This document shows, in pieces, positions 28,401-31,400 of a stretch of 64,000 nt of DNA; within the stretch, counting starts at the first letter, position 1; the number at the start of each line of letters is the position of its first letter. The stretch lies in assembly GCF_030013205.1 (NCBI RefSeq), contig NZ_CP122648.1. One strand, given 5' to 3'. This DNA is from Escherichia coli (GTDB lineage Bacteria; Pseudomonadota; Gammaproteobacteria; Enterobacterales; Enterobacteriaceae). A program made the position numbers.

Positions 28401-31400
28401 GGCGTCTGTAGATGCTACTGCCACTCAGGTGGGGGTGGATATCCTCAAGGAGGGCGGGAATGCCGTTGATGCCGCCGTGGCTGTGGGCTACGCGCTGGCG
28501 GTAACGCATCCGCAGGCAGGGAATCTGGGCGGTGGTGGTTTTATGCTGATCCGCTCGAAAAATGGCAATACCACCGCTATCGATTTCCGCGAAATGGCAC
28601 CCGCCAAAGCGACCCGCGATATGTTCCTTGATGATCAGGGTAACCCGGACAGCAAAAAATCACTCACTTCGCATCTGGCTTCTGGTACGCCCGGTACGGT
28701 AGCAGGTTTCTCGCTGGCGCTGGATAAATACGGCACTATGCCGTTGAACAAAGTGGTGCAGCCAGCGTTTAAACTGGCACGCGATGGTTTTATCGTTAAC
28801 GACGCGCTGGCTGACGATCTCAAAACCTACGGTAGCGAAGTGTTGCCGAATCACGAAAACAGCAAAGCTATCTTCTGGAAAGAGGGCGAACCGCTGAAAA
28901 AGGGCGACAAGCTGGTGCAGGCGAACCTGGCAAAGAGCCTGGAGATGATTGCCGAAAACGGCCCGGACGAATTCTACAAAGGCACGATAGCGGAACAGAT
29001 TGCCCAGGAGATGCAGAAAAACGGTGGCTTGATCACTAAAGAAGATTTAGCGGCGTATAAAGCGGTCGAACGTACACCGATTAGCGGCGAATATCGCGGG
29101 TATCAGGTTTACTCGATGCCACCGCCATCTTCCGGTGGGATTCATATCGTGCAGATCCTCAATATCCTGGAAAACTTCGATATGCAGAAATACGGCTTTG
29201 GCAGCGCCGATGCGATGCAAATCATGGCAGAAGCGGAGAAATACGCCTACGCCGACCGCTCGGAATATCTTGGCGATCCGGATTTTGTGAAAGTCCCGTG
29301 GCAGGCGCTGACCAATAAAGCCTATGCCAAATCTATTGCCGATCAAATCGATATCAATAAAGCGAAGCCATCCAGCGAAATTCGCCCCGGCAAGCTTGCG
29401 CCTTATGAGAGTAATCAAACTACCCATTACTCAGTGGTGGATAAAGACGGCAACGCGGTAGCGGTGACCTATACGCTGAACACCACCTTCGGTACGGGCA
29501 TTGTCGCGGGTGATAGCGGTATTCTGCTTAATAACCAAATGGATGATTTCTCCGCCAAACCTGGCGTACCGAACGTTTACGGGCTGGTGGGTGGTGACGC
29601 CAACGCGGTCGGGCCGAATAAACGCCCGCTGTCGTCGATGTCCCCAACCATTGTGGTGAAAGACGGTAAAACCTGGCTGGTTACCGGTAGCCCTGGCGGG
29701 AGCCGGATTATCACCACCGTGCTGCAAATGGTAGTGAATAGTATCGATTATGGCATGAACGTCGCCGAAGCGACCAATGCGCCGCGTTTCCACCATCAGT
29801 GGTTGCCGGACGAGCTGCGTGTCGAAAAAGGGTTTAGCCCGGATACGCTCAAGCTGCTGGAAGCAAAAGGTCAGAAAGTGGCGCTGAAAGAGGCGATGGG
29901 TAGTACACAAAGCATTATGGTTGGGCCGGACGGCGAGTTGTACGGCGCATCCGATCCGCGCTCGGTGGATGATTTAACGGCGGGGTATTAAGGTTAGCGG
30001 CCCTCTTCGTGGGAAGAGGGCCGTATTGTCAGGGCAAGCCGAAGGTAGCCTTTTTTATTTCATAATCCTGTAGATATTCTTCCAGCGGCTTTGCCGTTCC
30101 AAGGGAATGAATTTCACCACTGTCTTTATCAATAATAAAAGGTGCGTTACCGGCTAAGCGCGCGGCCTCATCACCAGATTCAAGAAATTCTTGTGATTCG
30201 AAACAGAAATACCAGCCCTGGATAAAACGTCCATGCAGAGTGATGACGACCGGGAGATCTGCATCATCAAGGTAATGGTTCGCTTTCGCGAATGCGTCGT
30301 GAAAAGTAATCATAATTATAATAAATATTATTGTTGATCGTTATATTATTATTCTTGCGTTATACTTTGAGAAAAGGCGCATTCATCTTCGTCAAAGATA
30401 TTATTAAATGCTGATTTTGAAAAAAGTTCATCGGATAATATACAGTCACGAAATAAGTATCTGCTAATATTTTGTGATTTCTTTTTCAGAACGTCGAACG
30501 GGATTTTCTTATTTAAGATATCAGAATCTTATGATTCGGGTGAAATTCTAACTAAATCAACATGTCACTAAAATCATCATAGCCATTAGCTATTTCGGCT
30601 AAAATGGCTAAAATAGAGATTACATGTCTTCGGTCCATCTCACTTAAGGAGTGTAGTTCCGTTGTAAGTTTTTCCATAGCTTGCACTGCTAAATTTCGAA
30701 CAAGGAATTTTCTGCTGGTAATCTCTAAAAAGATGGCATGGTTTACAATGATTTTTGTTACCTTTTGATTATTATGAACAACTGTCCATGATTTCGTTTA
30801 AGAATGAAGAGAAATCACTAAACGAACTGAATATATTTTCTGTGCCAATATTATCTCTAATTTCAAAAAAGTTACTTTTAATGTCATAAGTAAATATTGA
30901 AATGCTATCATCACCGATCACTAACCGTTCTTGTAGATCAGGGTTTATGAAATCATCATTATTTCTATAAAATTCATTTACGGCAAAAAGGTTTTTAACT
31001 GAAGGTTCTGGAATCGAGAGGCTAAATAATCGTAATCCATTAGCTTCGAATCCATCCATTGCTCTTAAAAAAGTAAGATAATCAGGTTGATTATTAAAAA
31101 GAATACTAACTTCATTACATAATTTCTCCAGGCAATTAGTTGAATTAGAATTAAATTCTATTTGGATTATACTTTCAATAAATGATTCCTTGAGCGGTGC
31201 TTCAAATGGATAGTCTAAATCATTCATCATTTTTTTTAATTTATTTATTTGGGTTTTAGTCATCATTTTGTGGGTTCCATAATATTTTTCATGGGAGGAT
31301 AAATTGAGCCAGATGGAATGGCCCAGGGAGTGATTTTGCTTTCACCTACTAATACTCCCTTAGCTATTCGTGATTGCATGTTAGTAAAAACTTTATGATA

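What the first reader, a model, noticed from the sequence alone, without database searches (positions are those of the whole stretch)
30552..30677. Candidate unannotated 41-codon ORF in the AT-rich spacer downstream of the immunity gene
On the minus strand an ATG at 30677 opens a 41-aa frame (MEKLTTELHSLSEMDRRHVISILAILAEIANGYDDFSDMLI) in the same orientation as the Hcp-HNH and immunity genes. It is below the ORF-track size cutoff. It could be a remnant of a second immunity-type gene or a small protein. The SD is weak.
Basis: seen in the sequence. Interest (0 to 1): 0.3.

Follow-up and report, generated by a model that had tools for sequence, protein, structure and literature searches.

The report
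Truncated yrhD allele, not new gene
The 41-codon ORF exists, but it is a shortened allele of the already annotated E. coli hypothetical gene yrhD, it shows no sign of selection as a protein, and the real remnant of a second immunity gene lies just downstream in another reading frame.

Summary
The ORF is at 30552..30677 (-) with the stated translation. It is not unannotated. It is an allele of E. coli yrhD (K-12 b4612, P58037, 51 aa), between yrhA and yrhB (Imm35), downstream of the Hcp-HNH effector yhhZ. An identical genome annotates this exact 41-aa ORF as a hypothetical protein.

Compared with K-12, the window allele has a 9-bp tandem duplication (+ILA), three missense changes and TAG in place of TAT at K-12 codon 39.

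Evidence against a selected protein:
- B2-type alleles lose the ATG and gain an internal TAA.
- About a quarter of carrier genomes fall in disrupted allele classes.
- 17 of 19 variants in 15 loci change or break the protein (crude dN/dS about 2, against 0.2-0.3 for yrhA and yrhB).
- There is no Shine-Dalgarno pairing.
- A 41-codon ATG-ORF arises in 35% of shuffles of this AT-rich spacer.
- No homologue exists outside the E. coli-type locus among 1.84 billion representatives.

The genuine relic is at 30361..30510 (-), in another frame. It is a start-less, truncated pseudogene of an 85-aa family that is intact in Citrobacter and sits 2-3 nt after Rhs toxin genes elsewhere. YrhD is unrelated to it.

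Verdict: already known, probably non-functional, low interest.

The parts
30552..30677 (-). The finding: a 41-codon ORF plus TAG, which is a truncated, 9-bp-expanded allele of yrhD (K-12 b4612, 51 aa)
   Evidence: Searches give the sequence and translation. Searches place it at the orthologous position of annotated yrhD. One search shows the identical ORF annotated as WP_123000662.1. One search finds the exact protein on record.
30684..30686 (-). Alternative in-frame GTG start, giving 44 aa (MQAMEKL...)
   Evidence: Some gene callers used it (P0048, P0054, P0060). It is ATA in B2-type alleles.
30597..30614 (-). Two tandem copies of ATTTTAGCC. The second copy is an in-frame 9-bp duplication (+Ile-Leu-Ala) absent from K-12-like, B2-type and most TAG-type alleles.
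   Evidence: Only 18-22 of 5426 complete E. coli genomes are >=99% identical to the window allele.
30552..30554 (-). TAG stop at the position that is TAT (Tyr39) in K-12-like alleles and TGG (Trp) in B2-type alleles
30513..30551 (-). The former 3' end of the K-12-length yrhD frame (LEFHPNHKILIS plus TAA). It is cut off in this strain by the TAG.
30361..30510 (-). Pseudogene remnant of an 85-aa Rhs-associated immunity-type family ('ORF-X'), in a different frame from yrhD. It has no start codon and only family positions 2-51 are recognisably retained (the last 34 are lost). The open frame runs on to a double TAA at 30346-30351.
   Evidence: tblastn to Citrobacter youngae L012:4495-4653 gives 41.5% identity over 53 aa, E 1.6e-9. 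hhalign to the family profile gives probability 96.8%, E 2.2e-10. The family is intact in Citrobacter and Budvicia. It sits 2-3 nt after Rhs toxin genes.
30772..31266 (-). yrhA, a 164-aa YrhA-family protein, by position the putative immunity gene of the Hcp-HNH effector
   Evidence: NCBIfam NF038335, E 3.4e-37. Annotated as yrhA.
30029..30313 (-). yrhB, a 94-aa Imm35-family immunity-type protein
   Evidence: Pfam PF15567 Imm35, E 7.9e-22. Annotated as YrhB family protein.
31263..32441 (-). [quoted passage not shown]
   Evidence: TIGR03344 and PF05638 hits plus a weak HNH hit. Literature context in PMC6730261.
30830..30859 (-). Promoter-like site TAGAGA-18-TATATT inside the 3' end of yrhA, about 150 nt upstream of the yrhD ATG
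   Evidence: Consensus scan; the number of sites in the region is not above the shuffle expectation. The same hexamers are listed for yrhD in the RpoD genomic-SELEX table of PMC3946193.

Best explanation
The ORF is the local allele of yrhD, an Escherichia coli-restricted hypothetical ORF already annotated in K-12 (51 aa). It lies in the AT-rich, horizontally acquired yhhZ (Hcp-HNH) / yrhA / yrhB immunity islet between ggt and yhhY.

Most likely it is not a selected protein-coding gene. It looks like a fortuitous open frame in decaying spacer DNA left behind by turnover of orphan immunity cassettes.

Shown:
- Its identity and position.
- Its allele differences from K-12: a slippage-type 9-bp duplication, three missense changes, and TAG at K-12 codon 39.
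- Breakage of the frame in other lineages.
- The absence of a synonymous bias, of SD pairing and of any homologue.
- An adjacent decayed immunity gene.

Inferred:
- The peptide has no selected function.
- Any transcription comes from read-through of the yhhZ-yrhA unit or from promoter-like sites in this H-NS-bound AT-rich DNA.
- Any translation product is an unselected 41-residue helix.
For: Identity: there is a 100% match to a genome where this ORF is annotated. K-12 strains carry the 51-aa allele at the same place, annotated yrhD.

Frame not conserved:
- The window, L004, L005, L017 and L010 alleles stop at TAG.
- The B2-type alleles L003, L007, L008, L019 and L020 have ATG->ATA plus TTA->TAA; L018 keeps the ATG but has the same TAA. 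PGAP flags all six as pseudogenes.
- Of 3802 carrier genomes, 2798 are >=99% identical to the K-12 allele. 521 fall in the identity band where the sampled alleles carry TAG, and 483 in the band where the sampled alleles carry the internal stop. 1624 genomes lack the sequence.

Substitution pattern in 15 loci:
- yrhD has 2 synonymous and 17 non-synonymous variants, codon positions 9/5/5, crude dN/dS about 2.1, and 12% variable sites.
- The flanking spacers have 15-16% variable sites.
- yrhA has dN/dS about 0.21 and yrhB about 0.28, both enriched at third positions.
- Database clusters hold many further single-residue variants along the whole length.

Chance and signals: P(>=41-codon ATG-ORF) = 0.35 in shuffles, and there is no anti-SD pairing. 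The RNA fold z-score is -0.27. Rfam gives nothing.

No homologues: the word-indexed search of 5.8 billion proteins and full HMMER against 1.84 billion representatives return only E. coli-type variants and fusions from this locus. Pfam, NCBIfam and PADLOC give nothing.

Synteny: in Citrobacter youngae the yrhA stop is 20 nt from the next gene, with no yrhD segment.

Decay is demonstrable next door: the ORF-X pseudogene.
Against: - The 51-codon form is intact and nearly invariant in about 2800 genomes (PMC3575317). This may only reflect the shallow ancestry of those lineages.
- Most sampled alleles keep the ATG.
- The frame is stop-free for 81 codons in this strain, reaching back into the 3' end of yrhA. 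That is long for 31% GC DNA, although the longest open stretch in the spacer is not significant against shuffles (P = 0.16).
- An RNAP-binding site with a predicted promoter was reported upstream of K-12 yrhD (PMC3946193).
- yrhB also lacks SD pairing, so a missing SD is not discriminating in this islet.
- dN/dS above 1 could in principle reflect diversifying selection, as seen in some immunity proteins.
- No Ribo-seq or proteomic data could be consulted.
Confidence: 0.72

Rival explanations
1. yrhD encodes a genuine, lineage-restricted small protein of 38-51 aa forming one amphipathic helix. It might be an accessory or young immunity-type factor of the islet that evolves quickly, with the truncated 41-aa form still active.
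For: - The ATG is retained in the K-12-type and TAG-type classes, and the 51-aa allele is identical in about 2800 genomes.
- The exact 41-aa allele is seen on 559 contigs.
- AlphaFold2 predicts one continuous helix with pLDDT 92.
- An RNAP-binding site with a predicted promoter lies upstream in K-12.
- The ORF is co-oriented with the immunity genes.
Against: - Start loss and an internal stop in the B2 class, and the stop at codon 39 in the TAG class.
- 17 of 19 variants are non-synonymous with no codon-position periodicity.
- No SD pairing, and an ORF length expected by chance.
- No homologue anywhere.
- A confident single-helix prediction is common for helix-prone sequences and is not evidence of function.
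Confidence: 0.12
2. One reading: the ORF is a recognisable remnant of a second immunity-type gene, for example part of, or a paralogue of, the neighbouring ORF-X immunity gene.
For: - The spacer does contain a decayed immunity-type gene immediately downstream.
- A pairwise BLASTP of YrhD against Citrobacter ORF-X gave a weak 25-residue match, E 0.015 for that single comparison.
- Islets with several immunity genes are seen here: yrhA, ORF-X and ORF-Y in Citrobacter.
Against: - Profile comparison of YrhD with the ORF-X family gives probability 0.06%. The same test gives 96.8% for the true remnant.
- YrhD shows no match to ORF-Y, to Pfam, NCBIfam or PADLOC, or to anything in 1.84 billion representatives. 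YrhB/Imm35 was not compared with YrhD directly.
- The ORF is in a different frame from the remnant and lies upstream of the remnant's first residue.
Confidence: 0.05
3. The yrhD frame is the worn-down 3' end of a displaced toxin gene (an orphan C-terminal toxin fragment) that once preceded ORF-X as its cognate toxin, as in orphan Rhs modules.
For: - Geometry: in K-12-like alleles the yrhD frame is open for about 88 codons without an upstream start. It ends at a TAA (window equivalent 30513-30515) that abuts the codon corresponding to the ORF-X initiator.
- In Budvicia and three metagenomic loci, ORF-X homologues sit 2-3 nt after an Rhs toxin gene.
Against: - The Rhs C-terminal toxin domain found upstream of ORF-X homologues is conserved across all four contexts. 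It shows no similarity to the yrhD frame by BLASTP or tblastx (no hit with E < 1).
- HMMER with the whole 141-aa conceptual frame found nothing outside E. coli-type sequences.
Confidence: 0.08
4. The segment acts as RNA or DNA, for example a leader, small RNA or regulatory site for yrhB or the islet, and the ORF is incidental.
For: - The first 57 nt of the ORF vary less (3 sites) than the last 99 nt (20 sites) in 17 sequences.
- Promoter-like sites and H-NS-bound 'promoter islands' are reported in K-12 yhhZ and yrhA.
Against: - The fold energy is not different from shuffles (z = -0.27), and there is no Rfam match.
- Rare amino-acid variants occur throughout the 5' part as well.
- The 5'/3' contrast was chosen after looking at the data, and between the major haplotypes it rests on very few substitutions.
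Confidence: 0.03

Closest known systems
E. coli K-12 YrhD (b4612, Swiss-Prot P58037, EcoGene EG14370), a 51-aa hypothetical protein of unknown function
   Same: It occupies the same locus between yrhA and yrhB, starts at the same ATG, and is 36 of 38 identical over the shared residues. It is the orthologous ORF.
   Different: The window allele has a 9-bp in-frame duplication (+ILA), V20I, N34S, and TAG instead of TAT at codon 39. This gives 41 aa instead of 51. A further Tyr->His change lies in the part that is now untranslated.
Orphan immunity genes and their relics in polymorphic-toxin (Rhs, CDI, T6SS effector) loci, here the uncharacterised 85-aa 'ORF-X' family of Citrobacter and Budvicia
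   Same: The spacer that holds the ORF also holds a decayed member of this family (30361-30510). The islet is an array of immunity-type genes after an Hcp-toxin fusion.
   Different: The 41-codon ORF itself is not related to that family, lies upstream of it, and is in another frame.
[quoted passage not shown] 2017 as summarised in PMC6730261)
   Same: The genomic context shares that architecture: yhhZ is an Hcp fused to an HNH nuclease and is followed directly by yrhA.
   Different: The ORF is not part of the described effector-immunity pair. Neither nuclease activity nor immunity was tested here for this locus.
Experimentally validated E. coli small proteins of 50 aa or fewer (Storz-laboratory type sets found by conservation, RBS models and initiation profiling; bioRxiv 10.1101/511675)
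   Same: The size class, and location in an intergenic stretch.
   Different: The abstract of 10.1101/511675 shows only that such proteins are identified by initiation-site ribosome profiling. That they typically have conserved frames, ribosome-binding sites and detectable tagged products is my own background knowledge. YrhD shows no frame conservation and no SD, and no expression data were accessible.

Membership tests
yrhD (E. coli K-12 b4612) orthologue | Orthologous position between yrhA and yrhB, downstream of yhhZ | tested here: met
   Annotated regions of identical and related genomes show the same gene order.
yrhD (E. coli K-12 b4612) orthologue | Nucleotide and protein identity to the K-12 allele | tested here: met
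   The 471-nt region is 94.3% identical to K-12-like genomes. The protein is 36/38 identical apart from the 3-aa insertion. The related 38-aa TAG allele falls in the same 90% cluster as YRHD_ECOLI, while the exact 41-aa window protein is in a separate 90% cluster.
yrhD (E. coli K-12 b4612) orthologue | Intact 51-codon reading frame | tested here: not met
   TAG at the codon-39 equivalent gives 41 aa. PGAP calls the sibling TAG alleles 'missing C-terminus' pseudogenes.
Selected protein-coding small gene | Reading frame conserved among relatives with an excess of synonymous change | tested here: not met
   2 synonymous against 17 non-synonymous variants, codon positions 9/5/5, with start loss and premature stops in two allele classes.
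Selected protein-coding small gene | Ribosome-binding site | tested here: not met
   Anti-SD duplex +0.1 kcal/mol for both the ATG and the GTG start. This is weakly discriminating, because yrhB also lacks SD pairing.
Selected protein-coding small gene | ORF longer than chance allows | tested here: not met
   P(>=41 codons) = 0.35 in 5000 shuffles of the spacer.
Selected protein-coding small gene | Evidence of translation (Ribo-seq, tag, mass spectrometry) | not testable with these tools
   Supplements of four Ribo-seq papers either contained no mention of yrhD or were not held.
   No hit in Pfam, NCBIfam or PADLOC. hhalign against the ORF-X family gives probability 0.06%. No match to ORF-Y. 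No homologue in 1.84 billion representatives.
   The ORF starts 94 nt after the stop of yrhA, which is itself an immunity-type gene and not a toxin.
ORF-X (85-aa Rhs-associated immunity-type family), applied to the neighbouring stretch 30361-30510 and not to the finding | Sequence homology to the family profile | tested here: met
   hhalign probability 96.8%, E 2.2e-10, over 50 columns. tblastn E 1.6e-9.
ORF-X (85-aa Rhs-associated immunity-type family), applied to the neighbouring stretch 30361-30510 and not to the finding | Intact gene with a start codon and full length | tested here: not met
   AAT stands in place of ATG, and only family positions 2-51 of 85 are recognisably retained. K-12-like alleles add an in-frame TAA. 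It is therefore a pseudogene.
Structured RNA family | Match to an Rfam model, or a fold more stable than shuffles | tested here: not met
   No relevant Rfam hit at E <= 1. Fold z-score -0.27.

The most novel reading that the evidence does not exclude
yrhD could be a very young, Escherichia-restricted proto-gene. On this reading it arose in junk DNA created by immunity-cassette turnover, is occasionally translated into a single-helix peptide, and changes length between lineages through one codon (TAG, TAT or TGG). That would be a natural snapshot of de novo gene birth or death inside a T6SS immunity islet. The evidence does not exclude it: the ATG-bearing forms are common, the 51-aa form is uniform in many genomes, and expression could not be examined.
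Probability: 0.08. Interest if true: 0.4.

Novelty: already known. Interest (0 to 1): 0.08.

Why it matters
It matters little. The ORF is already in public annotation, as yrhD in K-12 and as a hypothetical protein for this exact allele.

The useful outcomes are corrective:
1. The comparative evidence argues that yrhD is not under protein-level selection, so its annotation as a gene deserves scepticism.
2. The yrhA-yrhB spacer of E. coli carries an apparently unannotated pseudogene of an Rhs-associated immunity-type family that is intact in Citrobacter. This shows that the yhhZ islet has gained and lost orphan immunity cassettes.

If the ORF were shown to be translated, it would be a modest example of a lineage-specific proto-gene.

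Tried and rejected
- Homology of YrhD to anything. Pfam, NCBIfam and PADLOC gave nothing. The word-indexed search of 5.8 billion proteins and the full HMMER search of 1.84 billion representatives, using a 141-aa conceptual translation of the whole spacer frame, gave only E. coli-type variants and fusions from this locus.
- One decayed gene spanning yrhD plus the downstream frame. Rejected: only the downstream piece matches the ORF-X family.
- YrhD as a paralogue of ORF-X. A weak BLASTP hit (E 0.015) was not upheld by profile comparison.
- YrhD as the 3' relic of the Rhs toxin cognate to ORF-X. No similarity was found.
- YrhD as a C-terminal extension of an ancestrally longer YrhA. Rejected: YrhA covers the whole family model and is also 164 aa in Citrobacter. 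The YrhA-YrhD fusions in databases, P0007 and P0010, look like a deletion variant and a variant shifted near the yrhA stop.
- A repeated or mobile element. The segment occurs once per genome at the median, and nowhere else.
- A structured RNA. Nothing found.
- An outgroup for the ancestral state of codon 39. The genome-contig scan with YrhA returned no other Escherichia species, so the ancestral state stays unresolved. TAG is one step from both TAT and TGG.
- Expression data. Supplements of four Ribo-seq papers were empty or not held, and searching 'b4612' gave irrelevant papers.
- The structure of ORF-X. The AlphaFold2 model had pLDDT 45, so no fold search was run. The Rhs C-terminal toxin domain has no Pfam match.
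Full report

Yes. On the minus strand an ATG at 30677 opens 41 codons that end at TAG 30552-30554. The mechanical ORF list reports it from an in-frame GTG at 30686, giving 44 aa.

It has the same orientation as three neighbours:
- the 392-aa Hcp-HNH protein (31263-32441; TIGR03344 and PF05638 plus a weak HNH hit);
- the 164-aa YrhA-family protein (30772-31266; NF038335, E 3.4e-37);
- the 94-aa Imm35 protein YrhB (30029-30313; PF15567, E 7.9e-22).

All four lie in a 27-40% GC islet at about 30,030-32,650, between ggt and yhhY, whose flanks are about 50-60% GC.

There is no Shine-Dalgarno pairing: the best anti-SD duplex is +0.1 kcal/mol. The ORF is also no longer than chance allows. In 5000 dinucleotide-preserving shuffles of the 458-nt spacer, the longest ATG-ORF averages 38 codons and reaches 41 or more in 35% of shuffles.

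**2. What is it?**

It is yrhD. A megablast of 30320-30790 against 5426 complete E. coli genomes finds the region in 3804 of them. The feature under the match is annotated 'yrhD: protein YrhD' in most listed rows. K-12 strains carry a 51-aa allele at this place. That allele is Swiss-Prot P58037 / EcoGene EG14370, a hypothetical protein of unknown function (PMC3575317).

The genome that is 100% identical to the window (K_EC180) annotates this very 41-codon ORF as hypothetical protein WP_123000662.1. The exact peptide is on record on 559 contigs. 'Unannotated' is therefore incorrect.

**3. How does this allele differ from K-12?**

Alignment of the locus shows these differences from the K-12-like allele:
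- a tandem duplication of ATTTTAGCC (30597-30614), adding Ile-Leu-Ala;
- V20I and N34S;
- TAT->TAG at codon 39, which truncates 13 residues;
- a Tyr->His change in the tail that is now untranslated.

Sibling alleles (L004, L005, L017, and the metagenomic L010) share the TAG but lack the duplication. PGAP marks them as pseudogenes 'missing C-terminus'.

**4. Is the frame under selection?**

No. B2-type alleles have TTA->TAA, most of them together with ATG->ATA, and are annotated 'internal stop'.

Identity bands to the K-12 allele split the 3802 carriers as follows:
- 2798 at >=99%;
- 521 at 95-99%, where the sampled alleles carry TAG;
- 483 at 90-95%, where the sampled alleles carry the internal stop.

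The remaining 1624 genomes have no match.

Variant counts in 15 full loci:

| Region | Variable sites | Synonymous / non-synonymous | Codon positions 1/2/3 | Crude dN/dS |
|---|---|---|---|---|
| yrhD | 19 of 156 nt | 2 / 17 | 9/5/5 | about 2.1 |
| yrhA | 25 of 495 nt | 13 / 12 | 6/6/13 | about 0.21 |
| yrhB | 30 of 285 nt | 15 / 15 | 9/6/15 | about 0.28 |
| Flanking spacers | 15-16% | not applicable | not applicable | not applicable |

These ratios are crude counts against the consensus and are not phylogeny-corrected. The contrast with the two neighbouring genes is nevertheless clear.

Database clusters add many single-residue variants along the whole peptide, plus recombinant forms. Codon 39 exists as TAT, TAG and TGG. 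TAG is one step from both others. No outgroup was obtained to polarise the change.

**5. Does it resemble anything?**

No.
- Pfam, NCBIfam and PADLOC give nothing meaningful.
- A word-indexed search of 5.8 billion proteins and a full HMMER scan of 1.84 billion cluster representatives were run with a 141-aa conceptual translation of the whole spacer frame. They return only E. coli-type variants, frameshift products and YrhA-YrhD fusions from this locus.
- The DNA occurs once per genome at the median.
- There is no Rfam match and no unusual RNA fold (z = -0.27).
- AlphaFold2 predicts a single long helix with pLDDT 92. That is expected for a helix-prone peptide and says nothing about function.

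**6. What else is in the spacer?**

Following the surroundings gave the one substantive result. In Citrobacter youngae the locus is syntenic: Hcp-HNH, a YrhA homologue (66% identical), an 85-aa ORF ('ORF-X') starting 20 nt after the yrhA stop, an 87-aa ORF ('ORF-Y'), then ggt.

The window stretch 30361-30510, in a different frame from yrhD, is homologous to ORF-X:
- 41.5% identity over 53 aa, E 1.6e-9;
- hhalign against a 15-member family profile gives probability 96.8%, E 2.2e-10, covering family positions 2-51.

This stretch has AAT where the ATG should be and has lost the last 34 residues of the family. In K-12-like strains it also carries an in-frame TAA, and its crude dN/dS is about 0.74. 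It is a pseudogene.

ORF-X is intact in many Citrobacter species and in Budvicia. In Budvicia and three metagenomic contigs it sits 2-3 nt after an Rhs gene or an orphan Rhs C-terminal fragment. Those upstream genes all carry the same conserved C-terminal domain, which is the classic immunity position.

ORF-Y has homologues next to tssD/colicin genes in B2 E. coli.

The islet therefore collects orphan immunity genes, and E. coli has lost one of them. YrhD is unrelated to ORF-X (probability 0.06%), to ORF-Y and to the cognate Rhs toxin domain. The roughly 255 nt that contain yrhD have no counterpart in Citrobacter or Lelliottia.

**7. Most likely explanation**

The ORF is a known, Escherichia-restricted open frame in decaying spacer DNA of a horizontally acquired Hcp-HNH / immunity islet. 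It drifts: slippage duplication, missense changes, and stop gain or loss. It most probably has no selected product. Confidence is about 0.72.

Any transcription would come from read-through of yhhZ-yrhA or from promoter-like sites in this AT-rich DNA. One such site is TAGAGA-18-TATATT at 30830-30859, the same hexamers listed for yrhD in an RpoD genomic-SELEX study. K-12 yhhZ and yrhA are listed among H-NS-associated 'promoter islands'. That transcription would arise this way is inference, not a demonstrated result.

Rivals:
- A real fast-evolving small protein, about 0.12. It cannot be excluded because no expression data were reachable.
- A relic of a toxin 3' end, about 0.08. The geometry is suggestive but no sequence supports it.
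- A recognisable immunity-gene relic, about 0.05. refutes it.
- An RNA or DNA element, about 0.03.

**8. Comparison with the known, and novelty**

The finding is the orthologue of K-12 yrhD in position and sequence, but it fails the intact-frame criterion. It is not a member of any immunity family.

The context has the architecture of the Hcp-ET1 type of T6SS effector, an Hcp fused to an HNH DNase with a downstream immunity gene (PMC6730261).

Nothing here is new in kind. The ORF and this exact allele are already in public annotation. The only addition is that the E. coli yrhA-yrhB spacer holds an apparently unannotated relic of an Rhs-associated immunity-type family.

Interest is low, at 0.08.

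Noticed in passing
window 30361-30510 (-), open frame to 30346: A start-less, C-terminally truncated pseudogene of an uncharacterised 85-aa family. The family is intact in Citrobacter and Budvicia and sits 2-3 nt after Rhs toxin genes. None of the RefSeq E. coli records inspected annotates it.
   Followed up: yes
L021:3977-4999, L022:1-468, L023:1-588, L024:2849-3394, L025 up to 3998: A conserved Rhs C-terminal domain of about 150 aa (...GWRWSSHVHPDG...SEGD...ISDPYGKRGMF...SPEWKP) always precedes ORF-X homologues. It has no Pfam match. It is a candidate uncharacterised toxin-immunity pair.
   Followed up: partly
L012:4783-5046 (Citrobacter youngae): An 87-aa ORF-Y lies between ORF-X and ggt. 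DNA homologues at 77-80% identity lie next to tssD/colicin genes in 848 E. coli genomes, including UTI89 and EcN. It is probably another orphan Hcp-effector immunity gene.
   Followed up: partly
window 30604-30768 (+): A 54-codon ATG-ORF antisense to yrhD and the upstream spacer. It is the longest ATG-ORF in the spacer, and its length is within the shuffle expectation.
   Followed up: partly
window 30621-30677 (-): The first 57 nt of the ORF have 3 variable sites in 17 sequences, against 20 in the remaining 99 nt. The split was chosen after looking at the data, and rare variants do occur in the 5' part, so this is probably chance.
   Followed up: partly
window 30830-30859 (-), inside the 3' end of yrhA: The promoter-like TAGAGA-18-TATATT has the same hexamers as those listed for yrhD in the RpoD genomic-SELEX table (PMC3946193). 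In K-12 an IS1 lies in yrhA, between yhhZ and yrhD; here yrhA is uninterrupted.
   Followed up: partly
proteins P0007 and P0010 (E. coli-type, same locus): Natural YrhA-YrhD fusion proteins of 105 and 246 aa, apparently created by a deletion (P0007) and by a frame shift near the yrhA stop (P0010). The yrhD frame is stop-free back into the 3' end of yrhA.
   Followed up: partly
L003, L016, L020 (yhhZ); L006, L018 (yrhA); L016 (yrhB); L009: Other genes of the islet are also decaying in various strains. yhhZ has internal stops or frameshifts, yrhA and yrhB have frameshifts, and one strain has an IS1-associated deletion that leaves yrhB but removes yhhZ, yrhA and yrhD.
   Followed up: no
L011 and L014: An E. 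coli-like contig (98% YrhA, K-12 yrhD allele) is filed under a Flavihumibacter MAG. A low-depth contig in a Pseudonocardia assembly gave a short, weak YrhA-like hit (46% identity over 44 residues). At least the first is likely contamination of a public assembly.
   Followed up: no
window about 30030-32650: An islet of 27-40% GC between ggt and yhhY, with flanks of about 50-60% GC. This is consistent with horizontal acquisition. About 30% of complete E. coli genomes lack the yrhD region altogether.
   Followed up: partly
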